Part shown: one piece after another, positions 4,426 through 44,633 of the stretch
Layout of the letters: each line of letters opens with the position of its first letter
Numbering within the stretch: the stretch's first letter is position 1
Virus record (IMG/VR): IMGVR_UViG_3300029288_004137
Span: 32,001 to 96,000 of that record
Reading direction: 5' to 3' (one strand)
DNA length: 64,000 nt
Origin: a virus
Lineage: Duplodnaviria > Caudoviricetes
The notes under the pieces: model-generated
The model's input: the letters and a program-made list of their open reading frames with translations, nothing else
What the model was told of the DNA's origin: nothing
The model's database searches: none
Position numbers and translations under genes: made by a program

Positions 4426-4809
4426 ATGAAAATTACTAGTGCTCTTAAGACTCTTGAAAAAATGGGGTATAATGTTCGTTTTAAAGGTAATCACTATTGG
4501 GTTACTGTTGGAGACAACACTATTGATATGTTTACATCAAGTGTTGGTGAAGTTCGAGATATCCGAGCATTTAGAGTCAGAAAATCTAATGAAACTGATG
4601 ATCTAAGTGGTGCTTTTGCCGGAACATTTGAATTAAATCTCTCACAATCTTTGAAGAAACTTGGTCTTCCTGGAAATCTTTCTGAGATGAAGAAACTTCT
4701 TTCAAAAGAAACAAAAATTAATTCCGATCTTTCTGAAAAAGTTGAAGAAATAGCACCACATGCTGAATGTGCCCTCAAGGATGCTATGGATAATGGAATT
4801 GAATATTAA
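4426..4809 (+). CDS. Hypothetical protein, N-terminus similar to 6515..6892
   Basis: MKITSALKTLEKMGY vs MKFENAITKLERLGY; SD AAGGAG. Confidence 0.65.
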   Translation: MKITSALKTLEKMGYNVRFKGNHYWVTVGDNTIDMFTSSVGEVRDIRAFRVRKSNETDDLSGAFAGTFELNLSQSLKKLGLPGNLSEMKKLLSKETKINSDLSEKVEEIAPHAECALKDAMDNGIEY

Positions 4810-4841
4810 CTTCTTAAGTAAAAGAATAATAAAAGAATTTG

Positions 4842-5144
4842 ATGGAACAAATATATACAGACCATGAAATGGAACAAATGTATAAAGACTATGATCTAGG
4901 CATGGCATCATATTATAATAAGATCGAATCTGTTATACAATTAATTAATGATGGTGCTAATTATCATGTTGATAATGATTATCCCTTAAGAGTTGCATCA
5001 ATTTATGGTAATTTTGATATTGTCAAATATTTAATTCCTTTGTATAATAATAAAGAAGAATTAAAAACATTGTTTTTTAGAGTTAATAACTTTTATGTTA
5101 AATATCTAATTTTGGAAAGATTATATGAATTACAAAAATTCTAG
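4842..5144 (+). CDS. Ankyrin-repeat protein with LILERLY tail
   Basis: One to two repeats plus family C-terminal motif. Confidence 0.8.
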   Translation: MEQIYTDHEMEQMYKDYDLGMASYYNKIESVIQLINDGANYHVDNDYPLRVASIYGNFDIVKYLIPLYNNKEELKTLFFRVNNFYVKYLILERLYELQKF

Positions 5145-5667
5145 ATTTATTGAAGCAGTTAAAACTAATAATTTTCAGCAAGTTAAAGAATGTATTGAAG
5201 AAGGTATAGATATTCATGCTGACAAGGATTACGCTTTACGATATGCAGCAGAACGTGGTCACTTTGATATGGTTAAATATTTAGTTGAAAATGGTGCTGA
5301 TATTCATGCTTGTTATGATGCTGCTTTTAGATTTTCAGCGGAGAATAATCATTTAAATGTTGTCAAATATCTTGTTGAAAATGGTGCTGATATTCATAAT
5401 GATGATAATAATGTTATACGATTAGCAGCAGAATATGGATATTTCGAAATTGTTAAATATTTAATGGAAAAAGGTACTTATAATTATGCTGACAACAATT
5501 GTATTTTAGAATATGCAATAGAATTTAAACATTTTGATATTATTAGATATTTAATTCCTTTATATTCTAAATCGGAATTAAAAGAATTGTTTTTAAAAAT
5601 TAATAATTTCTGTGTCAAATGTTTGATATTGGAAAGGTTATATAATGGATCTTTTTGTTGCAATTAG
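5125..5667 (+). CDS. Ankyrin-repeat protein
   Basis: Ankyrin repeats plus LILERLY tail. Confidence 0.9.
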   Translation: MNYKNSRFIEAVKTNNFQQVKECIEEGIDIHADKDYALRYAAERGHFDMVKYLVENGADIHACYDAAFRFSAENNHLNVVKYLVENGADIHNDDNNVIRLAAEYGYFEIVKYLMEKGTYNYADNNCILEYAIEFKHFDIIRYLIPLYSKSELKELFLKINNFCVKCLILERLYNGSFCCN

Positions 5668-6070
5668 AAGAAACGATCTTCAGCAAGTTAAAGAATGTAT
5701 TAAACATGATGTTAATATTCATTATGATAAAGGTAATGCTTTACGATATGCAGTAGATAATGGTTGTTTTGAAATTGTTAAATATCTGGTTGAATATGGC
5801 ACTGATATTCATATTTGGAATGATTATCCTTTACGAATTGCAGCACTTTATGGTTATTCTGATATTGTTAAATATCTTGTTGAGCATGGTGCTGATATTC
5901 ATGCTGATAATGATTATGCTTTACGATGGGCAGCAAATAAGGGTCATTTTGATATTGTTAAATATTTAATTCCTTTGTATAATAATAAAGAAGAATTAAA
6001 AACATTGTTTTTTAGAGTTAATAACTTTTATACTAAATTCTTAATTTTAGAACAATTATATGGAACTTAA
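5645..6070 (+). CDS. Ankyrin-repeat protein
   Basis: Ankyrin repeats plus LILEQLY tail. Confidence 0.9.
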   Translation: MDLFVAIRRNDLQQVKECIKHDVNIHYDKGNALRYAVDNGCFEIVKYLVEYGTDIHIWNDYPLRIAALYGYSDIVKYLVEHGADIHADNDYALRWAANKGHFDIVKYLIPLYNNKEELKTLFFRVNNFYTKFLILEQLYGT

Positions 6071-9445: not shown

Positions 9446-10915
9446 ATGAAAAATATTAAAAAAGAATCAAATTTTATTCTTGATGATCATATTGCTTCTG
9501 CTTTAAAAGATGAAGAATTCTTTAGATGTCTATCTTTAAGAATTAACAAAAGAATTGATTATACAATCCCCACTGCTGGAGTGAGAATTGATAAGAGAAC
9601 AATGAACTTTGTTCTTGCATACAATCCGCTTTTTCTAGAATTATTAACTCAAGAAGAAGTTAGAGCAGTCCTTTCTCATGAATTTCTTCATATTTCTCTT
9701 GGACATGTTACTAAAGAAATAGTACATGAAAAAACACGTAATAATTTTATTGCTTTACATCATAAAAGAAATATAGCATTTGACTTATCAATAAATACAC
9801 ATTTGAAAAATTTTCCAGAAACAATAAAAATCCCAGATGCTAATGGAAAAGAAAAAATTGGATATAGTTGCATTCCTGGAAAAAATCAATATATTGATCT
9901 CCCTAAAAATTTAACATCAGATCAATATTTTTCTCTCCTACCTGATCCAGTTTGCATTTTTTCAAAATTGTTAAAAAATGCAGACAAGAATGGTCAGAAT
10001 GATCAAAGTGGTGAGAATGGCGAAAATAATCAAAATGGTAAAGGTAGTGAAGGTAGTGAAGGTAGTGAAGGTAGTGAAGGTAGTGAAGGTAGTGAAGGTA
10101 GTGAAGGTAGTGAAGGTAGTGAAGGCAGTGAAGGCAAAGACTCTCAGGGTTCTTCTGGAGATGATAAAGCACCTGCCTGTATTGGATGTGGAACTTGTTG
10201 TAATCAGGTTGGAGATCATGATTGGGGTGATTTGACTCAAGAAGAAAAAGAAATTCTTGAGAACAGAAGACTTCAAATTATTAGAAAAGCTGTGCAAGAT
10301 TCTAATTATAGATGGGGGACAATACCCAAAGAAGTCAGTGAAGAAATAATTAAACAAATTTCTAACAAAATTAACTGGAGATCTTTATTAAGATATTTTG
10401 TTAAATGTAATAGAAAAGCAGATAAAATTTCTTCTATTAAATCAATAAATAAAAGATTTCCGTATATTCATGCTGGAAAGAAAAGAACAAGAATGGCGAA
10501 TATTGCTGTTTCATTTGATGAATCTGGATCTGTAGATGATGAAATGTTGTCATTGTTTGCAGCAGAATTATCAAAACTTGTTCAAATAGCGTCATTTACT
10601 CTTATTCCATTTGACTATACAGTAGATGAAGAGAATATTTCTGTGTGGAAAAAGAATGATAAGTTCGAATTAAAAAGAACAAGGTCAGGTGGTACAAATT
10701 TTGATGCACCAACAGTTTATGTTAATGAACATAGAGAATTTGACGCTCATATAATTTTAACAGATTTAGAAGCTCCACAACCAACATTTTCAAAAGTACC
10801 TAGATTGTGGATAACTGATTCTGATCATGCAGAATCCCCTTATTTTAAACCTGAAAAAGAAAAGTTAATCGTAATAGAAAAAGATAAATGTATACAAATC
10901 TCTTTGAAGCAGTAA
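9446..10915 (+). CDS. Metallopeptidase-like plus vWA-like protein (DUF2201 type), likely MoxR partner
   Basis: HEFLH, DESGS MIDAS motif, GGTNF, low-complexity linker. Confidence 0.85.
   Translation: MKNIKKESNFILDDHIASALKDEEFFRCLSLRINKRIDYTIPTAGVRIDKRTMNFVLAYNPLFLELLTQEEVRAVLSHEFLHISLGHVTKEIVHEKTRNNFIALHHKRNIAFDLSINTHLKNFPETIKIPDANGKEKIGYSCIPGKNQYIDLPKNLTSDQYFSLLPDPVCIFSKLLKNADKNGQNDQSGENGENNQNGKGSEGSEGSEGSEGSEGSEGSEGSEGSEGSEGKDSQGSSGDDKAPACIGCGTCCNQVGDHDWGDLTQEEKEILENRRLQIIRKAVQDSNYRWGTIPKEVSEEIIKQISNKINWRSLLRYFVKCNRKADKISSIKSINKRFPYIHAGKKRTRMANIAVSFDESGSVDDEMLSLFAAELSKLVQIASFTLIPFDYTVDEENISVWKKNDKFELKRTRSGGTNFDAPTVYVNEHREFDAHIILTDLEAPQPTFSKVPRLWITDSDHAESPYFKPEKEKLIVIEKDKCIQISLKQ
10043..10132 (+). 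repeat. 9-bp tandem repeat (GGTAGTGAA) x10 encoding (GSE)10
   Basis: Directly visible; last unit is GGCAGTGAA. Confidence 0.95.
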
Positions 10916-11142
10916 GGAATAACGACCTTCAACAAGTTAAAAGATCCATTGAAAATAATACTGATATTCATGCTGCTAATGATTATGCTTTAAGCTGGGC
11001 AGCATATTTCGAACATTTTGATATTGCTAAATATTTAATTTCTTGTTATTCTAATATAGAATTAAAAAAAATATTTTCTCAATTCAATAATTTTTATGTT
11101 AAATCCTTAATCTTGGAAAGGTTATATAATGGATCTCAATGA
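10888..11142 (+). CDS. Ankyrin-repeat protein
   Basis: Ankyrin repeat plus LILERLY tail. Confidence 0.85.
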   Translation: MYTNLFEAVRNNDLQQVKRSIENNTDIHAANDYALSWAAYFEHFDIAKYLISCYSNIELKKIFSQFNNFYVKSLILERLYNGSQ

Positions 11143-11680
11143 TAAAATTAGAAATGATAATCTCAATCTTTTTGATGCAGTTGAAAATAACAATCTCCAG
11201 AAAGTTAAAGAACTTGTTGAACTTGGTGCAGATATTCATGCTGATGATGATTGGTCTTTAAGACATGCAGCAGAACATGGTTATTTTTATATTATTAAAT
11301 ATCTTATTGATCTTGGTGCTGATATTCATACCAATAATGATTGGCCTTTAAGATATGCAGCAGAATTTGGTCGTCTTGATATTGTAAAATATTTAGTTGA
11401 ACATGGTGCTGATATTCATGCTTTTGATAATTGGACTTTAATATGGACAGCACAAAAAGGTTATTTCGATGTTGTCAAATATCTCATTGAACATGGTGCT
11501 GATATTCATATAGATAATGATTATCTTTTACGATGGATAGCAAAACATGGACATCTTGATGTTGTTAAATATTTAATTCCTTTATATAAAAAATCAGAAT
11601 TAAAAAATTTTTTTTCTCGAATTGATAGTTTTTATGTTAAATTTCTAATCTTAGAAAGGTTATATAATGACTCTTATTGA
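11129..11680 (+). CDS. Ankyrin-repeat protein
   Basis: Ankyrin repeats plus LILERLY tail. Confidence 0.9.
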   Translation: MDLNDKIRNDNLNLFDAVENNNLQKVKELVELGADIHADDDWSLRHAAEHGYFYIIKYLIDLGADIHTNNDWPLRYAAEFGRLDIVKYLVEHGADIHAFDNWTLIWTAQKGYFDVVKYLIEHGADIHIDNDYLLRWIAKHGHLDVVKYLIPLYKKSELKNFFSRIDSFYVKFLILERLYNDSY

Positions 11681-12005
11681 TGCAATTAGTATAAACGACC
11701 TTCAACAAGTTAAAGAATGCATTGAAAATGGTGCTGATATTCATGCTCATGATGAGTATGCTTTAAAATATGCAGCAATGTATGGTTATTTGAATATTGT
11801 TAAATATCTTGTTGAGCATGGTGCTGATATTTATGCTCTTGATAATTATACTTTAAAATGGGCAACATATTTTGAACATTTTGATGTTATCAAATATTTA
11901 ATTTCTTTATATAATAAAGAAGAATTGAGAAAATATTTTTCTCAATTCAATTTTTTTTATATTAAATACTTAATCTTGGAAAGGTTATATGATAAGCCTC
12001 AATGA
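11667..12005 (+). CDS. Ankyrin-repeat protein
   Basis: Ankyrin repeats plus LILERLY tail. Confidence 0.9.
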   Translation: MTLIDAISINDLQQVKECIENGADIHAHDEYALKYAAMYGYLNIVKYLVEHGADIYALDNYTLKWATYFEHFDVIKYLISLYNKEELRKYFSQFNFFYIKYLILERLYDKPQ

Positions 12006-12534
12006 AGCAGTTAGAAATAACGATCTTCAACAAGTTAAACGCATTGTTGATAGATACATTGTTGGTAATTTTTTGAATCGTAAAGATTTTTTTAATCAAA
12101 AAGATGAAGCTTTAATAATTGCATCAGATAATGGATATTTGGATATTGTTAAATATTTAGCTGAGCATAATGCTGATATCCATGCACATGATGATATTGC
12201 TTTACGGTGGGCAGTAGAAGGAAGTCATTTTGATGTTGTTAAATATCTGGTTGAACAAGGAATTAACATCCATCGAGATTGTGATGATATTATAACAAGT
12301 GCGGCAGGTCAAAAAAATCTTGAAATTCTCAAATATTTGGTTGAACATGGTGTTAATATTCACGCTTCTAATGATTATGCTATAGAGTATGCAGTAGAAA
12401 ATGATAGATTAGATAATTTTAAATATTTAATTTCTTTATTCACAAAAACAGAATTAATAAAATTACTCCTTCAATATAAAGGACTCTATATTAATTTTTT
12501 AATCTTGGAAAGGTTATATAATGGATCTTATTGA
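11989..12534 (+). CDS. Ankyrin-repeat protein
   Basis: Ankyrin repeats plus LILERLY tail. Confidence 0.9.
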   Translation: MISLNEAVRNNDLQQVKRIVDRYIVGNFLNRKDFFNQKDEALIIASDNGYLDIVKYLAEHNADIHAHDDIALRWAVEGSHFDVVKYLVEQGINIHRDCDDIITSAAGQKNLEILKYLVEHGVNIHASNDYAIEYAVENDRLDNFKYLISLFTKTELIKLLLQYKGLYINFLILERLYNGSY

Positions 12535-12802
12535 TGCAGTAAGAAATAATAATTTTCAACAAATTAAATATCTTGTTGAGCATGGTGCTGATATTCGTAT
12601 TTGGAATGATTATCCTTTACGAATTGCATTAGATTATGATCATTTTGATATTGTTAAATATTTAATTTCTTATTATTCTGATACGGAATTAAAAACATTA
12701 TTTTCTTATTATTCTGAGATGGAATTAAAAAAATTAATTTCTCAAAGAAATAGTTTTTATGTTAAATTTTTAATCTTGGAAAGATTTTATGAAAAAAAAT
12801 GA
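12521..12802 (+). CDS. Ankyrin-repeat protein with duplicated tail segment
   Basis: SYYSDTELK..F followed by SYYSEMELK. Confidence 0.85.
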   Translation: MDLIDAVRNNNFQQIKYLVEHGADIRIWNDYPLRIALDYDHFDIVKYLISYYSDTELKTLFSYYSEMELKKLISQRNSFYVKFLILERFYEKK

Positions 12803-13335
12803 TTTAATAATGATTAGCTTTAAACAATCTATTGGTCTTGGTCTTGCTGGTGTTTTTGCTTCAAATATAAAAAATACATCATCGCTTTTGATATCAAAAC
12901 CTAGGTATGTTATTTTTCTTCATATTGACAAAGGTACAATAAACAGAATAAAATATTTATATTTCTTTGATATTTTAACAAAAGAAAATTTTAAAATACC
13001 ACTTTATAAATCATTATTAATAAGGAAAAAATAAATGTATACAAGTCTTATGACCTATGGTTCTACAAAAAAAGAAGTACTCGATCTTCTTTTAAAACAA
13101 ATACCAAATTTATACGCAGAAATATCTATTAATCTTTTATGCCTTCAAGATCCACGAGCAACCCATTTGTCAGATTATGAAACAAGTTTGCGAAACAATT
13201 CACAAGTCACTTGGAAAGCTTCTTTAGATTATATTTATGAATTCTCAAAAGAAGAAAATAATGATAAATCATAATCTAAACAATCTTCAATAAATAAATT
13301 TTATATCAAATGCTTAATCTTAGAAAGGTTATATA

Positions 13336-13660
13336 ATGAATCTCATTGAAGCAGTTGAAAATAATAATTTTCAGCAAGTTAAAGAATACATTAAATATGG
13401 CGCTGATATTCATATTGATAACAATTATGCTTTACGATATGCAGCACTAAATGGTTATATTAATATTGTTAAATATCTTATTAAATATGGTGCTGATATT
13501 CATGCTATTAATGATAATACCATAAATTGGATAACAGAATTTGGTCATTTTGATATTGTCAAATATTTTATTACTTTATATTCTGATACAGAATAAAAAG
13601 AATTAATTTTTAAACTTAATTCTTTTTATGTTAAATGCTTGATCTTAGAAAGGTTATATA
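13336..13660 (+). pseudogene. Ankyrin gene with premature stop in the tail
   Basis: GAA TAA at 13591-13596 where paralogs have GAA TTA; frame continues [21 protein letters not shown]. Confidence 0.75.
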
Positions 13661-14089
13661 ATGAATCTCATTGATGCAGTTGATAATAATGATATTCAAC
13701 AAGTTCAACATTTTGTTGAACAAGGTGATGATATTCATATTTATAATGATCTTGCTTTACGATTAGCAGCATTAAATGGTCATTTTGAAATTGTTAAATA
13801 TTGTATTGAAAATGGTGCTGATATTCATGCCGCTTATGATAATGCTTTACGAGGATCAGCAAAAAATGGACATTTTGATGTTGTTAAATATTGTATTGAA
13901 AATGGTGCTGATATTCTTGCTATTGATCATTATATAATGAGCATAGCTGTTAATAAAAATTATTTTGATGTTGTTAAATATTTAATTCCTTTATATCCAA
14001 TATCAGAATTAAAAGAATTGTTTTCTGAAATTGATAATTTCTATATCAAATTCTTAATCTTAGAAAGGATATTTAATGAATCTCAATGA
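13661..14089 (+). CDS. Ankyrin-repeat protein
   Basis: Ankyrin repeats plus tail. Confidence 0.9.
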
Positions 14090-14864
14090 AGCAATTATAA
14101 ATAACAATTTCCAGCAAGTTAAAGAATGTATTGAACATGGTGCTGATATCCATGCTCAAGATGAATATGCTTTAAAATATACAGCAATGTATGGTCATCT
14201 TGATATTGTTAAATATCTTGTTGAACTTGGTGCTGATATCCATGTTCAAGATAATCTTCCTTTAAGATACGCAGCAGAAAATGGACATCTTGATATTGTT
14301 AAATATCTGGTTGATCTTGGTGCTGATATTCATGCTCTTGACAATAGTGCTTTAAGATATGCAGCACCAAAAGGCCATTTTGAAATTGTTAAATATTTGG
14401 TTGACCTTGGTGCTGATATTCATGCTCAAGATGAATATGCTTTAAAATATACAGCAATGTATGGTTATTTGAATATTGTTAAATATCTGGTTGAACTTGG
14501 TGCTGATATTCATATTCAAAATGATATTACTTTAAGATATGCAGCGGAATTTGGATGGCTTAATATTGTTAAATATCTGGTTGAACTTGGTGCTAATATT
14601 TATGCTGCTGATGATTGTGCTTTACGATGGGCAGCAAAAAATGGACATCTTGATGTTGTTAAATATCTGGTTGATCTTGGCGCTAATATTCATGCTCAAA
14701 ACGATTATCCTTTACAATGGGCAGCAGGATTTGATCATTTTAATGTTGTTAAATATTTAATTCCTTTATATAAAAAATCAGAATTAAAAAAATTGTTTCC
14801 TTATATTGATAACTTCTATGCTAAATTCTTAATCTTGGAAAGATTATATAATGCAACTCAATGA
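14076..14864 (+). CDS. Ankyrin-repeat protein (about 7 repeats)
   Basis: 90-nt periodic repeats plus tail. Confidence 0.92.
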
Positions 14865-15378
14865 AGTGGTTGATAATAATGATTTTCAACAAATTAAAGA
14901 ATGTATTGAAAATGGTGCTGATATTCATTTTTGGAATGATTATGCTTTAAGAAGAACAGTAGAATATGGTCGTCTTGATGTTGTTAAATATTGTATTGAA
15001 CATAATGCTGACATTCATGTTTTAAGTGATCTTCCTTTACGATTAGCAGCATTAAATGGACATCTTGATATTGTTAAATATCTGGTTGAACATGGTGCTG
15101 ATATTCATATTTGGACTGATTGCCCTTTACGATTAGCAGCAGAATGTGGTTGTCTTGATGTTGTTAAATATTTTATTGAACTTGGTGCTGATATTCATGT
15201 TATTAATGATTACGCTTTAAGATATACAGTATATAATGAACATTTTGATGTTACTAAATACTTAATTTCTTTCTATTCTGATATAGAATTAAAAAAAATA
15301 TTTTCGCAGATCGATAATTTTTATATTAAATACTTAATTTTGGAAAGGTTATTTAATGAATCTCATAGATGCAGTTAA
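14851..15378 (+). CDS. Ankyrin-repeat protein
   Basis: Ankyrin repeats plus tail. Confidence 0.9.
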   Translation: MQLNEVVDNNDFQQIKECIENGADIHFWNDYALRRTVEYGRLDVVKYCIEHNADIHVLSDLPLRLAALNGHLDIVKYLVEHGADIHIWTDCPLRLAAECGCLDVVKYFIELGADIHVINDYALRYTVYNEHFDVTKYLISFYSDIELKKIFSQIDNFYIKYLILERLFNESHRCS

Positions 15379-15850
15379 TAATAATGATCTTCAACAAGTT
15401 AAATGTCTTGTTGAAAATGGTGCTGATATTCATGCTCAAGGTGATTGTGCTTTATGTCTTGCAGCAGAATATAGTCATCTTGATATTGTTAAATATCTTA
15501 TTGAACATGGTGCTGATATTCATGCAAATGCAGAACATGGACATCTTGATATGGTTAAATATCTTATTGAACATGGTGCTGATATTTATACTCTTAATGA
15601 TTGGCCTTTAAGATGGGCAGTAGAATATGGACATTTTGATGTTGTTAAATATTTGATTGAACATGGCGCTAATATTCGTATTTGGAATGATTATCCTTTA
15701 CGAATGGCATTAGATTATGATCATTTTGATATGGTAAAATATTTACTTTCTTATTATCCTGATACGGAATTAAAAAAATTGTTTTCTAAAACTGATAGTT
15801 TCTATGTTAAATTTCTAATCTTAGAAAGATTATACAATGAGTCTCATTGA
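15356..15850 (+). CDS. Ankyrin-repeat protein
   Basis: Ankyrin repeats (one with an in-frame deletion) plus tail. Confidence 0.9.
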   Translation: MNLIDAVNNNDLQQVKCLVENGADIHAQGDCALCLAAEYSHLDIVKYLIEHGADIHANAEHGHLDMVKYLIEHGADIYTLNDWPLRWAVEYGHFDVVKYLIEHGANIRIWNDYPLRMALDYDHFDMVKYLLSYYPDTELKKLFSKTDSFYVKFLILERLYNESH

Positions 15851-16184
15851 TGCAGTTTATAATAATGATCTTCAACAAGTTAAATGTCTTGTTGAAAATG
15901 GTGTTAATATTCATGTTGACAATGATATATCTTTAAGACATTCAGCACGACATGGTTATATTGATATTGTAAAATATCTTGTTGAGCATGGTGCTAATAT
16001 TCATACCGATAATGATGAGCCTTTATATTTTGCAGTATATTACAATCATTTTGATATTATCAAATATTTAATTTCTTTATATTCAATATCAGAATTAAAA
16101 GAATTAATTTTTAAATTTGATTCTTTTTATGTTAAATTCTTAATCTTAGAAAGGTTATATAATGAATCTTATAGATGCAGTTAA
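15837..16184 (+). CDS. Ankyrin-repeat protein
   Basis: Ankyrin repeats plus tail. Confidence 0.9.
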   Translation: MSLIDAVYNNDLQQVKCLVENGVNIHVDNDISLRHSARHGYIDIVKYLVEHGANIHTDNDEPLYFAVYYNHFDIIKYLISLYSISELKELIFKFDSFYVKFLILERLYNESYRCS

Positions 16185-16689
16185 TAACAATGATCTTCAA
16201 CAAATTAAATGTCTGGCTGAAAATGGTGCTGATATTCATTGTGAAAATGATTATGCTTTAAGAAGTGCAGCATATCTTGGACATCTTGATATTGTTAAAT
16301 ATCTGATTGAACATGGCGCTAATATTCACGTTCAAGATGAACTTCCTTTAAGATTTGCAGCATGTAATAATTATTTTGATATGGTTAAATATCTGGTTGA
16401 GCATAACGCTAATATTCACGTTCTTGATGATTATCCTTTACATTGGACAACAAAAAATGGATATTTTGATATTACTAAATATCTGATTGAACATGGTGCT
16501 AATATTTATGCTGAAAATGATAAAGCTTTAAAATGGGCAGCAGAATTTGGACATTTTGATATTGCTAAATATTTAATCTCTTGTTATAAAGAATCAGAAT
16601 TAAAAAAATTGTTTTCTAAAACTGATAGTTTCTATGTTAAATTCTTAATTTTAGAAAGGTTATATAATGAATCTCATAGATGCAGTTGA
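16162..16689 (+). CDS. Ankyrin-repeat protein
   Basis: Ankyrin repeats plus tail. Confidence 0.9.
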   Translation: MNLIDAVNNNDLQQIKCLAENGADIHCENDYALRSAAYLGHLDIVKYLIEHGANIHVQDELPLRFAACNNYFDMVKYLVEHNANIHVLDDYPLHWTTKNGYFDITKYLIEHGANIYAENDKALKWAAEFGHFDIAKYLISCYKESELKKLFSKTDSFYVKFLILERLYNESHRCS

Positions 16690-17014
16690 TAATAATGATC
16701 TTCAACAAGTTAAATGTTTGGTTGAAAATGATGCTGATATTCATGTTTATTATGAAGAACCTTTACGATTGGCAGTATATAATAATTATTTTGATATTGT
16801 TAAATATCTGGTTGAGCACGGCGCTAATATTCGTGCCAGTTGTGATTGGCCATTAAAATGGGCGTTTCAGTATGGTTATTTTAATATTGTTAAATATTTG
16901 ATTTCTTGTTATAAAAAATTTGAATTAAAAGAATTGTTTTCTGAAATCAATAGTTTTTATATTAAATACTTAATATTAGAAAGGTTATATAATGAATCTT
17001 TATGTTGCAATTAA
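16667..17014 (+). CDS. Ankyrin-repeat protein
   Basis: Ankyrin repeats plus tail. Confidence 0.9.
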   Translation: MNLIDAVDNNDLQQVKCLVENDADIHVYYEEPLRLAVYNNYFDIVKYLVEHGANIRASCDWPLKWAFQYGYFNIVKYLISCYKKFELKELFSEINSFYIKYLILERLYNESLCCN

Positions 17015-17333
17015 AAAAAACGATCTTCAAAATGTTAAAAAATATCTTAAAGAAGAAAATGAAAATAATTATAATTTAATTCTACGATATGCAATATTAT
17101 ATGGTAATCTTGGTATTATTAAATATCTGATTGAAAATGGTGCCAATATTCATACTAGTATTGATTATCCTTTAAGACATGCAGCAAAACGTGGTTATTT
17201 TGATGTTGTTAAATATTTGATTTCTTGTTATTCCGATATAGAATTAAAAACATTATTATTTGAAGTTGATAACTTCTATGTTAAATTCTTAATTTTAGAA
17301 TTTTTTCAGAAAAAATTTTCAAAAAATATTTGA
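16992..17333 (+). CDS. Ankyrin-repeat protein
   Basis: Ankyrin repeats plus tail. Confidence 0.88.
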   Translation: MNLYVAIKKNDLQNVKKYLKEENENNYNLILRYAILYGNLGIIKYLIENGANIHTSIDYPLRHAAKRGYFDVVKYLISCYSDIELKTLLFEVDNFYVKFLILEFFQKKFSKNI

Positions 17334-17387: not shown

Positions 17388-17627
17388 TGCAAAATACGTG
17401 CCAACCGTCTAGGTGTACCTAGTACCGGGGGGGTGTCTCATTATACCACATTGCTTTTCACTTGTCAAGAAAAATCGACATGGCATAGTTATTGCATATT
17501 GCTTTTTATTGTCATTGTTCCTTCACTGTTTATGCTCTAAGCATACCATACCTCGAAATGATTGTCAAGAAAAATCGACATGGCATGGTGATTGCATACT
17601 GAAGATGTATATGCAATCACCGTGCCA
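17388..17627. promoter_or_regulatory. Four sigma54 (-24/-12) consensus sites
   Basis: TGGCACGTATTTTGCA (-, 17388-17403), TGGCATAGTTATTGCA (+, 17481-17496), TGGCATGGTGATTGCA (+, 17581-17596), TGGCACGGTGATTGCA (-, 17612-17627). Confidence 0.65.
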
Positions 17628-17962: not shown

Positions 17963-18061
17963 TGCTTTGTTCCCTCACTGTTTATGCTCTAAGCATACCA
18001 TACCTCGAAACGATTGTCAAGAAAAAAACAACTGGAAATCTAATTCTATTACCTTTCTTCC

Positions 18062-18340
18062 GGTGATAGAGAAAAAGCATCATGCTTCTTAATTCTATTT
18101 ATATGTTAACTCCTTGATATTATTCAATTCACATTTTATTGTATCACTTTTCTCTAGTGAAGAGAAAAGAATCATGCTTTTTAAAATCTATTTGTATGTT
18201 AACTCCTTGATACTATTCAATTCACATTTTTTGGTATACTTTCTTTCCAGTGAAGAGAAAGAGGTATGAATTGAATATCATGTAAGTATTGTTAACACTA
18301 TGATAACATTCAATTCATACTTTTTGGTATACTTTTTCTT
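18062..18340. repeat. About 93-bp tandem repeat (2 copies plus a degenerate third) containing IHF-consensus sites
   Basis: TATCAAGGAGTTA on - strand at 18107-18119 and 18200-18212 matches WATCAANNNNTTR. Confidence 0.7.
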
Positions 18341-19085
18341 ATATAAAGCGCAATCATCTTAAGCATTAAGTTTTTAACTGTTTCTTTTCAAACCGGCTTA
18401 TCTCGTATATGATTCATTGTATCACCGTTAAATTAATTGTTTTTAATACAAAGATGATATATTCAATATAACAAAAATTGTTCAGGACCATCTCTAATTG
18501 AATTCATTGTTTTATCGCCTTCAATTGCATTTACGGAAGTTTAAAAGGCACCTGATATAATTCTGTTATAAAGCGCCTATCAAATACAATCATCATTCTT
18601 ACGTACAAGTTTAACAAGTCATGACAATTGTTAATTGTTGTATAGAACAATACTTCATTCTATTTTATCGTCAAGAAAACAGCATTGTATTTGATAGACT
18701 TATTCAATGTATTTTATAACCAATCACCTTCCTTTCAAAGAGAAAACATAAAATCATATCTTGTTTCCATTGCTTATAATAGACCATTCCACTCAAGGCC
18801 CAATGAAATCTATTGCGTCAGCTCTTGGTCAGGCTAGTTTATTTTAACGCGCTACAAGACTTTGACTTTGCTTATGTTTCTTTGTTAAAAAAAACAGTTG
18901 ACAAACAGAATCAAATGTGGTAAAATCGGATTAAATCCGATTTTTTTCTGTTATAAACCCGAAGTTATGCCATAAAATGATTCTATTTTTGTAACCATGT
19001 TAAATCATGGTACAATTTGATTGAAACATTTGGAACATTTCAATTTTATTCATAATTTAAAAGAGCGAGGGATTTACTTAATTGC

Positions 19086-24561: not shown

Positions 24562-25698
24562 TTATTGTGCTTTGAAGTTAAAGACTGGTTTCATAATGAA
24601 TTCGATATCTACAGTATCTTTGATAGAATCAATTATTCTTTGAGAATCTTTATATGCCATAGGGCTTTCATCGAGTGTATCTTTTGATATACACTTTGAC
24701 CATACATTTTCCATTGTCTTTTTAAAGGTATCCAAAGACAATGTTTTTTTGGCTTTGGATCTTGCGAGGATTCTTCCTGCTCCATGAGGAGCTGAATAAT
24801 TCCATTCTATATTTTCTTTTCCTTTTCCAATAATAATCCCATCTCTCATATTCAATGGGATTATTAAGTTTTGTCCTTTATAAGCAGATATGGCACCTTT
24901 CCTGATAATTGCTATATCTTTTTGGAATTCGATATAATTGTGGATAGATTCTATTTTAGTTCTAATTCCTTTTTGATTAAAGAAATCAATTAAAATCTTT
25001 TCTGCAATCAGTGCTCTATTAAGTTTAGCATATGCTTGAGCAATGATCATATCATCGAAGTATGCTTGTGCTTCTTTTCCTGTTAAATACTCAAGATTTG
25101 AAACACAAGGATAATTTTTAATTTCTTTGGCAATTGCTTGATGGAAATTAGCAATTCTAAGTCCAAAGTTTCTTGATCCGGTATGGATTGTAAGCCACAA
25201 TCTATCTTGATCATCTTTATCTATTTCAATAAAATGATTTCCACCTCCAAGTGTCCCCAAAGAGCACAAAACATTTTCAATGTTTTGTTCGGTACGACAA
25301 GAAATCTTTTTGATATCAGAATCAAGATAAAAATCTAATACTTCTTTAGGATTAGAATGTTTATTGAATCCTGAAGGAACGTTTTCAATAAGAAAATTAT
25401 GAAAACGCTCAAAATCTATTTCTTTCTTATCATTAATTAAATAAGAAGATACACCGCAACCAATGTCAACCCCCACAATATTCGGGATTATAATTGGTTT
25501 GAGTATGTTAATTATTGAAGTAAACCCAATACAAGATCCACTTCCTGAATGACAATCAGGCATGATTGAAATCTTGCTATCCTTAAAAACAGGATGATTT
25601 ATAAATGTTGATATTTGTTTTGAAGTTTCTTCTTCAAGATCTGAATAATCTTCTAACATAACATCTGCATTTGTATATTTCCCTTCAATTTTTAACAT
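24562..25698 (-). CDS. rtcB: RtcB family RNA ligase
   Basis: MPDCH, VGVDIGCG, LGTLGGGNHF, HTGSR, HNY, SAPHGAGR, DESPMAYK. Confidence 0.95.
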   Translation of the reverse strand: MLKIEGKYTNADVMLEDYSDLEEETSKQISTFINHPVFKDSKISIMPDCHSGSGSCIGFTSIINILKPIIIPNIVGVDIGCGVSSYLINDKKEIDFERFHNFLIENVPSGFNKHSNPKEVLDFYLDSDIKKISCRTEQNIENVLCSLGTLGGGNHFIEIDKDDQDRLWLTIHTGSRNFGLRIANFHQAIAKEIKNYPCVSNLEYLTGKEAQAYFDDMIIAQAYAKLNRALIAEKILIDFFNQKGIRTKIESIHNYIEFQKDIAIIRKGAISAYKGQNLIIPLNMRDGIIIGKGKENIEWNYSAPHGAGRILARSKAKKTLSLDTFKKTMENVWSKCISKDTLDESPMAYKDSQRIIDSIKDTVDIEFIMKPVFNFKAQ

Positions 25699-25740: not shown

Positions 25741-25931
25741 AAGTTAAAAATAGAATTCAAGGATAATCACATGTATTTATTAACGATTTTCATCTTTTTT
25801 CACACTCATATAAGATTTGAAAAAGTATCAACTTCAGAAAACAATTTTTTTAATTCTATATCAGAATAATAAGGAATAAAAATGTAAATCTTATATCTGC
25901 AAGGATTATCCTTGAATTCTATTTTTAACTT
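25741..25931 (-). ncRNA. Long-stem ncRNA carrying an ankyrin-gene-derived loop
   Basis: Perfect 28-bp terminal inverted repeat; inner 11-bp stem; homologous to 31597..31866. Confidence 0.7.
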
Positions 25932-25978: not shown

Positions 25979-26344
25979 AAATTAATATTAACAAGAGGTT
26001 TTTACTAAGTATAAACAAGTTCAGTTAAAAAGACAGCTCGATCAAATCTTTAAGATTTGAACCTTTTAACAAGAGACTAATATTGTTTAAACGTCACTTG
26101 AAAAGAGAATGATAAATTTCCTCTTTCAAAGAAAAGAAATTGTTTTGTCTTTTAGGTAAATTATTTATACCATTATATTTTAAAACTTCCGGCTGTTAAA
26201 ACATATTATAACAAAGAGAGATTTATCAAAATATATTGAAAGTTATAAAATTGTATAAATCTTTAATAAAATATATCAATAAACAATTTGATTATATTTT
26301 CTACTCTTTGTTTTTTAGTAAAAACCTCTTGCTAATATTAACTT
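25979..26344 (-). ncRNA. Long-stem structured ncRNA (about 365 nt)
   Basis: 30-bp terminal stem with two G-U pairs on the - strand; internal hairpins. Confidence 0.65.
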
Positions 26345-29964: not shown

Positions 29965-29968
29965 ACAA

Positions 29969-30051
29969 AATAAAGTTAAGATACGAAGTCCTAAAATGCC
30001 CTACAATTGATTTGTTTTAGGGTTTAGGTAAAAAAATATCTTAACTTTATT
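29969..30051 (-). ncRNA. Stem-loop element directly 5' of tRNA-Arg
   Basis: Perfect 15-bp inverted repeat AATAAAGTTAAGATA. Confidence 0.5.
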
Positions 30052-30107
30052 TCAACGCTTCCAATTTAAATTATGGAAGCGTAGCAGGCATTTATATTTA
30101 TACTATA

Positions 30108-30370: not shown

Positions 30371-30616
30371 AAAGTTAATATTAGGAAGAGATTTATATCA
30401 AGTATGAATATTAAAGATAAAGGTTTCTTTCTCTCTCAGCTCAAAGAACTTCGCTTTTCTTAAGAATATTTCATACCATCACAATACAAGACGACTAGTA
30501 TTTCCGTTATATTGTGTTCTAACGAAGAATAACATTATTCATATACTGAGATGATACATGATATAACGTATCTTTTCTTGGCTTTTTAATATAAATCTCT
30601 TCCTAATATTAACTTT
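30371..30616 (-). ncRNA. Long-stem structured ncRNA with its own promoter
   Basis: Perfect 28-bp terminal stem; TTGACA/TATGAT promoter at about 30627-30656. Confidence 0.7.
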
Positions 30617-30691: not shown

Positions 30692-30870
30692 GGATAGAGA
30701 AAAGGGAACAATTAACAATTAGTTTATATTTCAAAATTAAATTTCAACCATCAAGCAATTAATGAAATTGCGGAACGTGGTATCACAGTTTAATTTTGAC
30801 TAATTTCAATATGGGTAATTAATCCATATATCCCTCATTAAAAACGAGAATTGTTCCCCTTTCTCTATCC
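30692..30870 (-). ncRNA. Long-stem structured ncRNA with its own promoter
   Basis: 22-bp stem with one G-U on the - strand; TTGACA/TATGCT promoter at about 30879-30907. Confidence 0.7.
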
Positions 30871-31596: not shown

Positions 31597-31866
31597 AAGT
31601 TAAAAATAGGATTCAAGAATAAACTTGTATTTATTAGCGATTTCTCCTCAATATCTAAAAAGTGCCCCTTACCACAAAATTGGTATTATTGACTTTTAAT
31701 TGAGAAGAAACCTGGCATATAGTGTGCCCCGTACTCCCATCGTTTTTATCATTAACCGATCTTTTGACAAGAGATGTTCTATACACTTCAAGATTTGAAT
31801 TTAAAATCTACAAAACAATTCAAGTCTTATATCTGCAAGTTTATTCCTGAATCCTATTTTTAACTT
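31597..31866 (-). ncRNA. Long-stem ncRNA forming the leader of tRNA-Ala
   Basis: 31-bp stem with one G-U; promoter at about 31878-31906; ends 3 nt before the tRNA. Confidence 0.72.
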
Positions 31867-34105: not shown

Positions 34106-34112
34106 TTATTCA

Positions 34113-34355
34113 AAAATTTAAAAGAAAACATGAATATGAAAAAAAATATATCTTAAAGTATCATCATTATCATTATAAGACAACATAAATCAACATGACT
34201 TTTTTCTGCTGCAAATCTTGAAGAAACAAAATATTCAACGAGATCAAGATGACCATTTATATAAAGTAATTAAGTAATTAAAAAACAAAGCGCACCGTGT
34301 TCAACAAGGTATTTAACAACATCAAACATCATATTCATGTTTTCTTTTAAATTTT
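34113..34355 (-). ncRNA. Long-stem ncRNA enclosing tiled ankyrin-gene fragments
   Basis: Perfect 27-bp inverted repeat; interior has four ankyrin-like segments; 7 nt upstream of tRNA-Trp. Confidence 0.7.
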
Positions 34356-34370
34356 CAAATAACAAAATCT

Positions 34371-34415
34371 TGTCCGGGAGGATTCTACTCCGTTGAATAA
34401 CTATCCTCCCGGACA
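34371..34415 (-). ncRNA. GC-rich hairpin at the start of the transcript from the promoter at about 34431-34459
   Basis: TGTCCGGGAGGAT/ATCCTCCCGGACA; TTGACT-N17-TAGAAT upstream. Confidence 0.55.
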
Positions 34416-34465
34416 CGATTAACAGATTCAATTCTATCAGATAAAATTTCAAAAGTCAAGAGAAA

Positions 34466-34723
34466 AATGGGGGTTCAGCAAGAGAAACCTATCTGATTGC
34501 AGATTTTAATCTCTTTTCTAATCCTTTATTAGAACAAAGGGCCAAACCCCCATTCTGTACTCTCATTCGCAAAGAATATCAATCATATGAGATATATATG
34601 GGTTGATAATTCTTCACTTGCAAAGGTCACAAACAAGAAACGGATTATTCTGTTGTAACATTAAACATTGCTAAGTCATTCTATGCAAATCCATCTACAT
34701 TTCGAAGTAACTTATGAGAGTAC
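34466..34723 (-). ncRNA. Two adjacent structured RNA domains behind a promoter and a boxA-like motif
   Basis: Stems GTACTCTCAT/ATGAGAGTAC and AATGGGGGTT/AACCCCCATT; no ORF. Confidence 0.55.
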
Positions 34724-35221: not shown

Positions 35222-35281
35222 ATCGAAATATGGTGCTGAAGGAGGGATTCGAACCCTCATGACCTATGGTCGAGAGATTTT

Positions 35282-35980
35282 CATACCACTATGATTTTCA
35301 TCACTATGTTTCTACGTTTATAGAAAACATATTTGTAGCCTGGACTATGCCTTTACCTTATCTTATACTACTTAGTATAAGACTTAGGTAGTTACCGTCT
35401 AGTCTCTACACTTTCTTTTCTAAAGGAGAATCATAATGCGATTATTAAAGTATTCTGAAAAACAATTAATAGAGGCTGTTTTAACTTCTACAAGTAAACG
35501 TCAAGTTCTTTTAAAACTTAATGTAAAAGCATGTGGAGGAAATTATACTGTTCTTACCAAAGCAATAAAATATTTTAAATTAAACATATCTCATTTTACT
35601 GGAAAGGCTTGGAACAAAGGTAAAAAATTTACTAAAAAATCTCTTGAATGTTATTTAACAAACGATATTCAAATTCAATCTAATAAATTGAAAAAAAGAC
35701 TTTTAGCAGAGAAAAAATTTCCTTATCAATGCTCTAATTGTAAAAGAACAACCTGGCTTAAATGTCAAATACCTTTAGAACTTCATCATAAAGATGGAAA
35801 TTCTAAGAATAACAAGATAGACAATCTAACTTTATTATGTCCAAATTGTCATTCAATGACCACATCATATTGCCGTAGAAAAGCTTAGCTCGGCGTTGTC
35901 ATGCAAATAAATTTGTTTAGATTTCACCGAATTTGGCAACATTCACATAAAGATTTCTCGCTTATGTGCTCAAATCAAAT
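35282..35980 (-). mobile_element. Group I self-splicing intron (699 nt)
   Basis: Inserted after U34, ends in G; P7 AGACTA/TAGTCC (GTAGAGACTAGACGG...GCATAGTCCA). Confidence 0.88.
35436..35888 (+). CDS. HNH endonuclease encoded antisense within the intron
   Basis: CSNC...LELHHKDGNSKNNKIDNLTLLCPNCH; SD AAGGAG. Confidence 0.9.
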   Translation: MRLLKYSEKQLIEAVLTSTSKRQVLLKLNVKACGGNYTVLTKAIKYFKLNISHFTGKAWNKGKKFTKKSLECYLTNDIQIQSNKLKKRLLAEKKFPYQCSNCKRTTWLKCQIPLELHHKDGNSKNNKIDNLTLLCPNCHSMTTSYCRRKA

Positions 35981-36021
35981 AAGTCTCTTGCGTCTACCAT
36001 TCCGCCACAACAGCATTACAG

Positions 36022-37440: not shown

Positions 37441-37765
37441 CGATGGGAAATTAATTTCCCATCGTTCTCCCTTGTGCTATGCTATAGCAAGCATAATCCG
37501 TTATTAAAAACCTAAAGATTCACGGATTTACAAAATTCTTTAGGCTTATATTGCCTGCTTAATCTACTTTACAGGAAGATAACATATGCAGGCTAATATA
37601 TGTTATCCGCTTTATTGTGTTATAAAGGAAAAACTAATAAGTGCTTTATAACACAATAAAAATGTATACTATGATAGAGATGTACGAAAAAATATGTACC
37701 TCATAGTATAGTATTAAAATTACCCGTATGGGCGACTGCCCTATTTATCAATGTGCCACGGGCAA
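37441..37765 (-). ncRNA. Multi-hairpin structured RNA between two promoters
   Basis: At least five hairpins (e.g. TTTATTGTGTTATAAAG/CTTTATAACACAATAAA); no ORF. Confidence 0.6.
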
Positions 37766-38209: not shown

Positions 38210-38641
38210 TCATTTAATTATTATCCTCTCCAATATTAAGTATTTAATATAAAGATTGTCAATCTGAAAAAACAATTCTTTTAATTCCATAACAGAATGT
38301 AAAGAAAGTAAATATTCAACCATATTAAAATGTTTATTTTCTGCCACTCTTTTTAAAAGATTACCACAACCATTAAAAAGAAGATGAAAATCAGCACCAT
38401 GCTCAATCAAACATTTGACAACATCAAAACGATTGTAAAATGCTGCAAACCATAAAGGACTATCGTTTTCAGCATGAATATTGGCACCATGCCCAATCAA
38501 ATATTTAACAATATCAAGATAGCCCTTTTCCGCGGCCCATCTTAAAGCAAGATCATCTTCAACATGAATATTATATCCATTTTCAATATAATATTTAACT
38601 TCTTGAATATTATTATTTATTACTGCATCAACGATATTCAT
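38210..38641 (-). CDS. Ankyrin-repeat protein
   Basis: Ankyrin repeats plus LILER tail. Confidence 0.9.
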   Translation of the reverse strand: MNIVDAVINNNIQEVKYYIENGYNIHVEDDLALRWAAEKGYLDIVKYLIGHGANIHAENDSPLWFAAFYNRFDVVKCLIEHGADFHLLFNGCGNLLKRVAENKHFNMVEYLLSLHSVMELKELFFQIDNLYIKYLILERIIIK

Positions 38642-38687
38642 TATATAACCTTTCTAACATTAATTAATAGAATCAATTTTATTGAAT

Positions 38688-39008
38688 CTATTTTTTTGAT
38701 ATTTTCTTTTCATTTAATTTTTTCAATATTAAAAACTTAAGGTGTAATAACTCAGATTTCCCTATAGAATCCATATCATAATATACATCAAAAAAAGAAA
38801 AGAATTCTTTTAATTCAAATTCATAAAGGAAACTTATTAAATATTCAAAAATATCCCAATGTTTTCTTTCTTCTGCAAGAAGAACAGGTTCATATTTATT
38901 AAATCGAATATCAGCACCTTGTTCAACATTATATTTTACCAAATCAAATCTACCAATTTGAACTGATATTTTTAAATCATAATTAAGTTTATTACTTTTG
39001 TTTTTCAT
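38688..39008 (-). CDS. Divergent ankyrin-repeat protein
   Basis: GRFDLVKYNVEQGADIR. Confidence 0.65.
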   Translation of the reverse strand: MKNKSNKLNYDLKISVQIGRFDLVKYNVEQGADIRFNKYEPVLLAEERKHWDIFEYLISFLYEFELKEFFSFFDVYYDMDSIGKSELLHLKFLILKKLNEKKISKK

Positions 39009-39715
39009 CGTCTTTCCCATATTGACATATAGGACAAAATTGTTTTTCAATATCAAATAATTCTGAAAGACAATTAGGACATTTATATGGTGTATATCCA
39101 CAAAATATACATTTACATTCATTTATATGAACGAACAATGTTTCTTTTTGACAATGAGGACAAAGTTTAAACATTTTTATTCCTTACTATTTTTTCAGAT
39201 ATTTTTATAATTGAACACTTTTTACATTTAGTAATGCTTTCATCAGAAAACCAAAAGTATCCTGCTGCTACTAATAAACAATTTACCAATACCATGATTA
39301 TTATACCCATTTTATTGTTTTACCTGTCGTGTTATTAGTGCTTTTGCAAGCATTTCTTTAACAGCTTTCTCATTTTGTCTAAAGAAAAAAGACATTATAT
39401 TTAAAGGGCAATTCAAACACTCATTAAGTTTTAATGTGTTTTTTTTCACATTAAAACTTAATTCTGAAGAATACATAAAACAATATCCTGCAAAAAAAGC
39501 AAAAAAAGCAATGATATAAATCATATTTCTTTCTCTTTTTCAGAATTTAAACTTTCTTTTACTTCTGAAGAAACCAAAGATTGCATAAGAGCATTAAACA
39601 TGTCTACACATTTCAAGCACAAAAAAACCTGCTTTGTTTTTTGTTTTTGAGAAGCCAATAGCACTCCCAATCCAAAAGAAATAATTCCTAGAACAATGCC
39701 TGTAAAGATTTCCAT

Positions 39716-43686: not shown

Positions 43687-44397
43687 ATGGATCTCTATGA
43701 AACAGTTAGAATTGGCAATTTTCAACAAGTTAAATATTTTATTGAAAATAGCACTGATAATCATGAGATAAATGTAAAGGTATTATTACATTTAGCAACA
43801 GTAAATGGCCATCTTGATATCGTCAAATATCTTATTGAACGATATCAAGATATTGATATTTATGCTAATAATGATATTGCTTTACATCTTGCAGCACAAA
43901 ATAACCATTTTGATATTATTAAATATTTCGTTGAAAAAAAAGTAAATGCTAATACTTTAAATGGTTCTATTTTAGCATATGCAGTACAATATAATTGTAT
44001 GCATATGATCATATATTTAATTGAAAAAGGTGCTAATATTCATGCTTTAAATGAAATTGCTTTAAAAGCAGCAGTAACATTTAATCATTTTGATATTGTT
44101 AAGTATCTTATTGAACATGGTGCTGATATTCATATTGAAAATGATTATGTTTTAAGACTTGCCGTAAGAAAAGGTTTGATAGATATTGTTAAATACCTCA
44201 TTAAATGTGGTGCAGATATACGTGCTGATAATAATCGTGCTTTACGATGGGGACTTAAATACCAAATAAAGTATAATAACAAATTTAATATTGTCAAATA
44301 TTTAATTTCTTGTTATAATAAAGAAGAATTAAAAGAATTGTTTTTTAAATTTGATGATCTTTATATAAAGTATTTAATTTTGGAGCAAAGTATATGA
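43687..44397 (+). CDS. Ankyrin-repeat protein
   Basis: Ankyrin repeats plus LILE tail. Confidence 0.9.
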   Translation: MDLYETVRIGNFQQVKYFIENSTDNHEINVKVLLHLATVNGHLDIVKYLIERYQDIDIYANNDIALHLAAQNNHFDIIKYFVEKKVNANTLNGSILAYAVQYNCMHMIIYLIEKGANIHALNEIALKAAVTFNHFDIVKYLIEHGADIHIENDYVLRLAVRKGLIDIVKYLIKCGADIRADNNRALRWGLKYQIKYNNKFNIVKYLISCYNKEELKELFFKFDDLYIKYLILEQSI

Positions 44398-44633
44398 ATA
44401 TCTTTGATGCAATAGAAGAAAACAATATTCAGTCTGTTAAAGAATGTATTAAAAGTAGTGCTGATATTCATGCTCATAATGCTTTAAGATGGGCAATAGA
44501 ATTAAATCGTTTTGAAATTATTAAGTATTTAATTTCTTTATATACCTTTTTAGAGTTGAAAATATTGTTTTTTAAAACTAAGGATCTTTATATAAAGTAT
44601 CTAATTTTAGAGCAAGTATATGAATCTTCTTGA
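44394..44633 (+). CDS. Short ankyrin-repeat protein
   Basis: One repeat plus tail. Confidence 0.8.
   Translation: MNIFDAIEENNIQSVKECIKSSADIHAHNALRWAIELNRFEIIKYLISLYTFLELKILFFKTKDLYIKYLILEQVYESS

What the first reader, a model, noticed from the sequence alone, without database searches (positions are those of the whole stretch)
25741..25931. Conserved ncRNA scaffold with a swappable loop carrying the ankyrin C-terminal coding motif
Seen: a perfect 28-bp terminal stem, and an inner 11-bp stem (ATATAAGATTT/AAATCTTATAT) enclosing, on the - strand, ATTCCTTATTATTCTGATATAGAATTAAAAAAATTGTTTTCTGAAGTTGATACTTTT (IPYYSDIELKKLFSEVDTF). This is the tail motif of the ankyrin array; by hand alignment 45 of 54 nt match the tail of gene 15356..15850. 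The element at 31597..31866 has the same scaffold (AAGTTAAAAATAG, TTGCAGATATAAG, AAATCG.TAATAAATAC) with compensatory stem changes but a short unrelated loop at this position. Inference: a fixed scaffold with a variable gene-derived insert is the architecture of programmable guide or template RNAs (retron msd-like, DGR template-like, bridge-RNA-like). It lies just upstream of rtcB.
Basis: partly seen in the sequence, partly recalled or inferred. Interest (0 to 1): 0.9.

Follow-up and report, generated by a model that had tools for sequence, protein, structure and literature searches.

The report
Phage RNA carrying own-gene decoy fragments
A large phage appears to make several stable RNAs sealed by long end-to-end stems, and two of them carry short sense-strand copies of its most repeated gene family, most likely as decoys for RNAs that target those genes; this rests on one genome and has not been tested.

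Summary
Observation confirmed. The 28-bp stem is perfect, and the loop is a sense copy of the ankyrin-gene tail (45/54 identical; shuffles reach at most 37). The element is one of seven minus-strand, stem-closed RNA candidates in the early tRNA/RNA-ligase region of a 210-kb phage. All six stem mismatches are G-U on that strand, and three elements start at sigma-70 promoters. A second element (34106-34362) holds five 29-38-nt sense ankyrin pieces; nine other gene families appear in none.

The guide/template reading fails its tests. Searches for reverse transcriptase (RVT_1), IS110, TnpB, Nop/Tas and Ro60 found nothing; there is no adenine bias; the inner stem is weak (26% here, 0% in the paralogue); and the paralogue's loop may be a decayed piece of the same tail. 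No homologue was found beyond one near-identical strain.

Best reading (about 0.38): an exonuclease-resistant target-mimic sponge for antisense RNAs against ankyrin mRNAs, either host crRNAs or a phage antisense transcript from a perfect promoter facing the array. Passenger capture is close behind (0.3). Expression is untested. The scan noted these elements earlier on this genome only.

The parts
25741..25931 (-). E1: stem-closed ncRNA candidate (the finding), 191 nt
25904..25931 (-). E1 5' arm of the perfect 28-bp terminal stem
25741..25768 (-). E1 3' arm; the flanks add a further imperfect stalk with internal loops, a possible RNase III site (inference)
25820..25882 (-). Sense copy of the ankyrin-gene tail: 53/63 to the family consensus, 51/63 to the three best genes, no private alleles, no mismatch at 26 near-invariant columns
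25808..25896 (-). Inner 11-bp repeat (25896-25886 with 25818-25808) around the insert; weakly supported, probability about 0.26
25889..25903 (-). 15-nt motif after the 5' arm, shared with E2
25772..25789 (-). 18-nt motif before the 3' arm, shared with E2
31597..31866 (-). E2: paralogue of E1; 31-bp stem; sigma-70 promoter 31906-31878; ends 3 nt before tRNA-Ala; its loop 31821-31798 may hold a decayed piece of the same tail
34106..34362 (-). E3: 34-bp stem with 2 G-U pairs, abutting tRNA-Trp; interior of five sense ankyrin pieces at 34326-34292, 34284-34256, 34256-34225, 34225-34189 and 34176-34148
25982..26341 (-). E5: stem-closed, structured interior, no self-genome match; directly upstream of E1, probably on the same transcript from the promoter at 26610
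30371..30616 (-). E4: stem related to E5; promoter 30655-30627; no self-genome match
30692..30870 (-). E6: 22-bp stem; promoter 30907-30879; no self-genome match
29968..30052 (-). E8: 16-bp stem, ends 3 nt before tRNA-Arg
24562..25698 (-). rtcB, 378 aa, downstream of E1; its ribosome-binding site lies outside the stem
10888..17333 (+). Main tandem array of short ankyrin genes with a shared two-helix C-terminal tail. Further copies lie at 3327-6070, 38210-39122, 43687-44633 and outside the window; the family is 7.4% of the genome
17440..17468 (-). The only 12/12 sigma-70 promoter in 10-38 kb; no ORF behind it; points antisense into the 3' end of the ankyrin array. Candidate source of antisense RNA, or an origin primer

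Best explanation
E1 is an early, host-polymerase-made phage RNA whose two ends pair into a long stem that protects it from exonucleases. Inside, it displays a loosely folded, family-typical sense copy of the ankyrin mRNA tail. With E3, which displays five pieces of the ankyrin repeat, it most likely acts as a target mimic (sponge): it base-pairs with antisense RNAs aimed at the roughly 25 ankyrin mRNAs and so relieves or times their silencing. The antisense RNA could be host crRNA of an RNA-targeting CRISPR system, since one spacer would hit many paralogues, or the phage's own transcript from the promoter at 17468. Shown: the sequences, stems, wobble asymmetry, promoter-like sites, the ankyrin match and its polarity. 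Inferred: transcription, end processing, stability, and every step of the sponge mechanism.
For: RNA-level selection on the minus strand: 6 of 6 stem mismatches are G-U there and none on plus; E2, E4 and E6 stems begin 8-11 nt after a -10 box; E2, E3 and E8 end 0-3 nt before tRNAs. 26 of 29 strong extended sigma-70 sites in the genome lie on the minus strand of 17468-42382. All six ankyrin pieces are sense, and antisense matches stay at null level. Of ten family profiles only the ankyrin one hits these elements, and only E1 and E3. E1 and E3 interiors are open: 0% and 11% of bases confidently paired, against 35-50% in E2, E4, E5 and E6. The E1 insert has no mismatch at 26 near-invariant columns (p = 0.001 against uniform drift from the consensus); if E2's loop is the same piece decayed, E1's copy has been kept in step. 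E1 pairs with the antisense of the tails at a mean of -37 kcal/mol, but with the mRNAs themselves no better than controls (-18.6 against -17.3). E3 pieces are 29-38 nt and match the consensus as well as or better than any one gene. A perfect promoter faces the array antisense, and the first gene it would read (tail at 17215) is one of the three best matches to E1.
Against: No expression data. One genome and one near-identical strain, so no covariation between insert and genes can be seen. The host and its CRISPR type are unknown. In type III systems a bound RNA without a tag-matching 3' flank activates immunity (PMC7214462), and the six pieces share no common 3' flank, so a simple decoy could trigger the defence. 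A 75-90% match would compete poorly with a perfectly complementary cis-antisense RNA. E3 lacks the most repeated ankyrin 16-mer. A recent capture from a since-lost paralogue gives the same allele pattern.
Confidence: 0.38

Rival explanations
1. Passenger capture: the function lies in the stem-closed shape (a stable RNA, or a decoy for double-stranded-RNA-binding proteins), and ankyrin DNA got in because it is the most abundant and most recombining sequence in the genome. E3 would then be a contracted remnant of two tandem ankyrin genes.
For: At least four sibling elements have the same closed-stem plan with no self-derived cargo. The family is 7.4% of the genome. The sister assembly has a 482-bp paralogue-to-paralogue deletion in the array (it could also be an assembly collapse). 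E3 pieces 1, 3 and 4 share one reading frame and can be read as colinear with deletions. Differences from the consensus are synonymous or conservative, as from a real gene.
Against: Two separate scaffolds took the same family in the same polarity (roughly 0.074 squared x 1/4 if random by length). No other intergenic DNA outside the arrays holds comparable gene pieces. Five retained pieces of similar length are unlikely under random deletion. The E1 insert shows no drift at invariant columns.
Confidence: 0.3
2. Protein-titrating decoy: the sense copy mimics an mRNA site bound by a translational repressor or a sequence-specific RNase.
For: Sense polarity, open interiors and early strong promoters fit. 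The ankyrin genes overlap stop-to-start, and the tail precedes the next gene's ribosome-binding site.
Against: The pieces cover five different parts of the coding sequence with no shared short motif. E1 stops about 20 nt short of the ribosome-binding site. No candidate RNA-binding protein was recognised among 63 nearby ORFs.
Confidence: 0.12
3. Programmable guide or template: the insert pairs with the template DNA strand, or is reverse-transcribed, to diversify or homogenise the ankyrin genes.
For: A sense RNA can pair with the template strand. The array recombines. The terminal repeat followed by a G-containing motif shared with E2 loosely recalls a retron msr (from memory, a lead only). A host enzyme could act in trans.
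Against: No RVT_1, IS110, TnpB, Nop or TROVE match in the genome. No adenine bias. E3-specific bases are rare in the genes. The sister strain's changes in the array use no E1 or E3 sequence. The insert is not in the msd position, and the inner stem is weak.
Confidence: 0.1
4. Cis leader of rtcB, or a 44-codon TTG-started mini-ORF making a tail peptide.
For: E1 ends 42 nt before rtcB with no terminator between them. The insert's frame is open through the 5' arm.
Against: The rtcB ribosome-binding site is outside the stem and unstructured. The mini-ORF has no Shine-Dalgarno sequence and would have to run through a 28-bp helix. Sibling elements precede tRNAs or other genes.
Confidence: 0.05

Closest known systems
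Bacterial RNA sponges derived from target mRNA (SroC against GcvB; PMC4474525)
   Same: A stable sense-strand piece of a target message that could pair with the antisense regulator and relieve a whole set of targets.
   Different: SroC is a decay fragment of the mRNA itself. Here the copies are separate genes in a 28-34-bp closed stem, consensus-like, multi-piece in E3, phage-encoded, and no antisense partner is known.
RNA-based anti-CRISPRs: Racrs (PMC10651486) and viral sgRNAs (bioRxiv 10.64898/2026.06.01.729453)
   Same: Phage non-coding RNAs proposed or shown to soak up CRISPR machinery.
   Different: Those mimic the repeat or the guide scaffold and bind Cas proteins. E1 and E3 would mimic the target; no CRISPR repeat match passes threshold (best E = 1.5).
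Stable RNAs of unknown function in phages (T4 RNAC and RNAD; PMC9697503)
   Same: Phage small RNAs of unknown role; from my own knowledge they lie in the T4 tRNA cluster and are released by tRNA-processing enzymes.
   Different: The T4 RNAs are classed as late; I know of no report that they carry copies of the phage's coding sequence. No Rfam match here.
DGR template repeat, retron msr-msd, IS110 bridge RNA
   Same: Structured RNA holding sequence that matches genes in the same genome; terminal inverted repeats as in retrons.
   Different: The defining enzymes were not found, there is no adenine-specific signature, the insert is in the wrong position, and there are no paired top/bottom-strand guide loops.

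Membership tests
Diversity-generating retroelement | Reverse transcriptase in the element or genome | tested here: not met
   PF00078: no candidate in the 210-kb record; a host RT is not excluded
Diversity-generating retroelement | TR and VR differ almost only at TR adenines | tested here: not met
   Mismatch rate at A 0.19, T 0.21, C 0.53, G 0.55 over 22 sites
Retron | a1/a2 terminal inverted repeats closing the ncRNA | tested here: met
   28-bp perfect stem
Retron | Adjacent RT gene | tested here: not met
   Neighbours are rtcB and E5
Retron | msd hairpin next to the 3' arm carries the variable cargo | tested here: not met
   On the transcribed strand the insert is in the 5' hairpin; the inner stem has probability 0.26
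Retron | msDNA with a 2'-5' branch at a conserved G | not testable with these tools
   Needs cDNA detection
IS110 bridge RNA | IS110 recombinase | tested here: not met
   PF02371 absent
IS110 bridge RNA | Two loops, each with short top- and bottom-strand guides | tested here: not met
   One 60-nt sense piece; antisense matches at null level
OMEGA (TnpB) and TIGR-Tas | Cognate TnpB or Nop-domain protein | tested here: not met
   PF07282 and PF01798 absent; IscB was not searched
Y RNA / Ro60-RtcB module | TROVE protein and a Y RNA match | tested here: not met
   PF05731 absent; no Rfam hit on E1
Racr | Mimics a CRISPR repeat | tested here: not met
   No repeat family over threshold; E1's cargo is coding sequence
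6S RNA | Rfam match; rod with a symmetric central bubble | tested here: not met
   No hit up to E = 5; interior fold z = 0.3
RNA sponge / target mimic | Accessible sequence that resembles the target mRNA | tested here: met
RNA sponge / target mimic | An antisense regulator exists and is bound | not testable with these tools
   Only a candidate promoter at 17468; host unknown
Type III non-cognate-target decoy | Shared tag-complementary 3' flank after each piece | tested here: not met
   The six 3' flanks differ; only E1's resembles a common anti-tag, which is weak and post hoc

The most novel reading that the evidence does not exclude
The phage builds end-sealed RNAs loaded with spacer-sized, consensus-like sense copies of its most repeated gene family and makes them first in infection to saturate RNA-targeting CRISPR or other antisense guides: an anti-defence RNA that mimics the target, not the repeat, and is reloaded from the phage's own genes.
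Probability: 0.2. Interest if true: 0.88.

Novelty: new variant of a known kind. Interest (0 to 1): 0.6.

Why it matters
The RNA anti-CRISPRs I found in the literature mimic repeats or guide scaffolds. A phage RNA that mimics the target, and covers a whole paralogue family with a few consensus pieces, would be a different counter-defence, and it would explain how a phage can afford dozens of near-identical genes that one spacer could hit together. It would also give a testable role to stable RNAs in phage tRNA clusters. Even if the cargo is a passenger, seven uncatalogued closed-stem RNA candidates show how such RNAs can be built from local gene scraps.

Tried and rejected
Homologue searches found nothing: three DNA patterns in viral contigs; one in metagenomes, whose five hits have no stem; blastn on GenBank phages, which hit only rtcB and tRNAs; a two-sequence covariance model on four capsid-related genomes and 34 loci, best outside E = 0.14; Rfam. 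The ankyrin tail was found only in this phage and its sister. RtcB relatives are at most 54% identical, capsid relatives at most 55%. Nine other virus records, scanned for long stems, show no such cluster, only isolated repeats. The sister strain (JGI 3300037067) is identical over E2, E4 and E6; no sister contig was found over E1, and the Logan contig over E1 is identical. Sense-sense pairing of the insert with ankyrin mRNA is no better than controls. G-U direction between pieces and genes does not discriminate (11.7 against 12.4). A consensus ankyrin 32-mer found no match, such as a spacer, in GTDB genomes. The likeness of the inner stem to the tRNA-Ala anticodon arm is within chance by my estimate. 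The fold of one ankyrin protein (pLDDT 94.6) matches generic ankyrins, and the best matches cover only the repeats, not the two tail helices. Literature searches found no report of this architecture.

Full report
Setting. The window is positions 32001-96000 of a 209,974-bp, 27.7% GC virus record. It is a phage with 22 called tRNAs, RtcB and two other RNA ligases and several expanded gene families. It is nearly a singleton: RtcB relatives reach 54% and capsid relatives 55%. The only close sequences are fragments of a near-identical strain and what appear to be re-assemblies of the same sample.

Observation. The tail match is far beyond chance: 45/54 against at most 37/54 in 200 shuffles, E = 5e-11 with a family profile. 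The homology to E2 (31597-31866) holds for the outer stem and for two short motifs beside it. Two parts of the description weaken. The inner stem has pairing probability 0.26 in E1 and 0 in E2, where another hairpin is predicted. E2's loop may not be unrelated: it starts with 10 nt identical to the tail of five ankyrin genes, close to the expected register (p 0.004-0.03 depending on the register allowed, 0.2 unanchored). This test was post hoc.

A family, not a pair. Five of the six best long inverted repeats in the genome lie in 25.7-34.4 kb, and E6 and E8 add two shorter ones. All six mismatches in these stems are G-U on the minus strand. E2, E4 and E6 begin 8-11 nt after a sigma-70 -10 box, so the predicted 5' end falls at or just before the stem. 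E2, E3 and E8 end 0-3 nt before a tRNA, where RNase P would make their 3' end (established knowledge; inference here). E1 probably shares a transcript with a 65-aa ORF, E5 and rtcB from the promoter at 26610. Of 29 strong extended promoters in the genome, 26 lie on the minus strand of 17468-42382, so these are probably early, host-polymerase products. None matches Rfam.

The cargo. E3 (34106-34362) has a different stem and an interior made of five sense ankyrin pieces of 29-38 nt. They match the family consensus as well as or better than any single gene. E1's piece is 51/63 identical to three different genes and 53/63 to the consensus; it has no private allele and no mismatch at 26 near-invariant columns. 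E2, E4, E5 and E6 have no self-match above null, apart from the possible remnant above. Nine other family profiles hit none of the elements, and a genome-wide intergenic scan finds comparable gene pieces outside the arrays only in E1 and E3. The two loaded RNAs are also the two with open interiors.

Guide or template? Each named system was tested and failed a defining feature. No RVT_1, IS110, TnpB, Nop or TROVE protein was found, and none was recognised among 63 nearby ORFs. There is no adenine bias. Several E3-specific bases occur in only 0-10% of matching gene sites, which a working donor would have spread. The sister strain's array differs by a 482-bp paralogue-to-paralogue deletion and one substitution, with no insert-derived sequence. 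A host enzyme acting in trans is not excluded.

How it most likely works. A sense copy cannot silence the mRNA: pairing with it is at control level, while pairing with its complement averages -37 kcal/mol. The natural partner is therefore an antisense RNA, or the template DNA strand. I favour a target-mimic sponge, by analogy with SroC (PMC4474525). Two sources of antisense RNA are possible. One is host crRNA of an RNA-targeting system: the E3 pieces are spacer-sized, one spacer would hit many of the paralogues, and the phage's tRNAs and RNA ligases suggest RNA-level conflict (inference). The other is the phage itself: the only perfect promoter in 10-38 kb sits at 17468, has no ORF, lies past the hairpin at 17581-17627, and faces the array's 3' end. 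Against this, a type III complex is activated by a bound RNA unless the 3' flank matches the crRNA tag (PMC7214462), and the pieces share no such flank. Passenger capture from the genome's largest, actively recombining family (7.4%) remains nearly as likely. The adjacency to rtcB has no support as a mechanism, since sibling elements precede tRNAs or other genes.

Comparison and novelty. It works, if at all, like an RNA sponge. It is not a DGR, retron, bridge RNA, Racr (PMC10651486), viral sgRNA, Y RNA or 6S by the features tested. T4 RNAC and RNAD are a precedent for phage RNAs of unknown function (PMC9697503). I found no homologue, no similar cluster in nine other virus records and no paper describing the anatomy. 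I file it as a new variant of a known kind.

Verdict. The anatomy is real and odd; the mechanism is unproven; the evidence comes from one genome with no expression data. Interest 0.6. The target-mimic anti-defence reading has probability about 0.2 and would merit about 0.88.

Noticed in passing
window 35231-36014 (-): tRNA-Leu(UAA) split by a 699-nt intron with group I-like motifs; a 150-aa ORF (35436-35888), probably the HNH hit, lies inside it on the opposite strand. Missed by the default tRNA scan and by Rfam; found with intron search.
   Followed up: partly
window 17440-17568 (-): Two strong promoters without an ORF of 50 aa or more point into the 3' end of the ankyrin array; the second is followed by a C-run and a small hairpin. 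Antisense source, origin primer or genome end.
   Followed up: partly
window 34466-34723 and 37441-37765 (-): Two further strongly folded blocks (z -5.9 and -6.4) with no Rfam or self-genome match; a 55-nt hairpin at 34366-34420 precedes E3.
   Followed up: partly
L030:6682-7061 (genome 26682-27061): Perfect 24-bp inverted repeat pairing the leader of a 349-aa plus-strand ORF (radical-SAM-like by motif) with its own coding region about 310 nt in.
   Followed up: no
L117 against window 15084-15565: The sister assembly lacks 482 bp, fusing two ankyrin paralogues; recombination or assembly collapse.
   Followed up: partly
window 17963-19085: 1.1-kb ORF-free stretch with three repeats of about 60 nt; possible replication origin.
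   Followed up: no
window 10888-17333: The conserved end of the ankyrin tail also spells the Shine-Dalgarno sequence and start of the next gene. The tail folds as two helices and was found in no other genome.
   Followed up: partly
window 13275-13660: Two ankyrin pseudogene remnants in the array: a lone tail end, and a gene with a stop inside the tail.
   Followed up: no
window 34125-34137: The start of E3's 3' arm matches the ankyrin repeat core over 11-13 nt in sense, at about null level; the stem itself may derive from ankyrin DNA by inverted duplication.
   Followed up: partly
L197:8890-9075: An unrelated virus record has a perfect 43-bp inverted repeat spanning 186 nt, with no self-match of its interior.
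   Followed up: no
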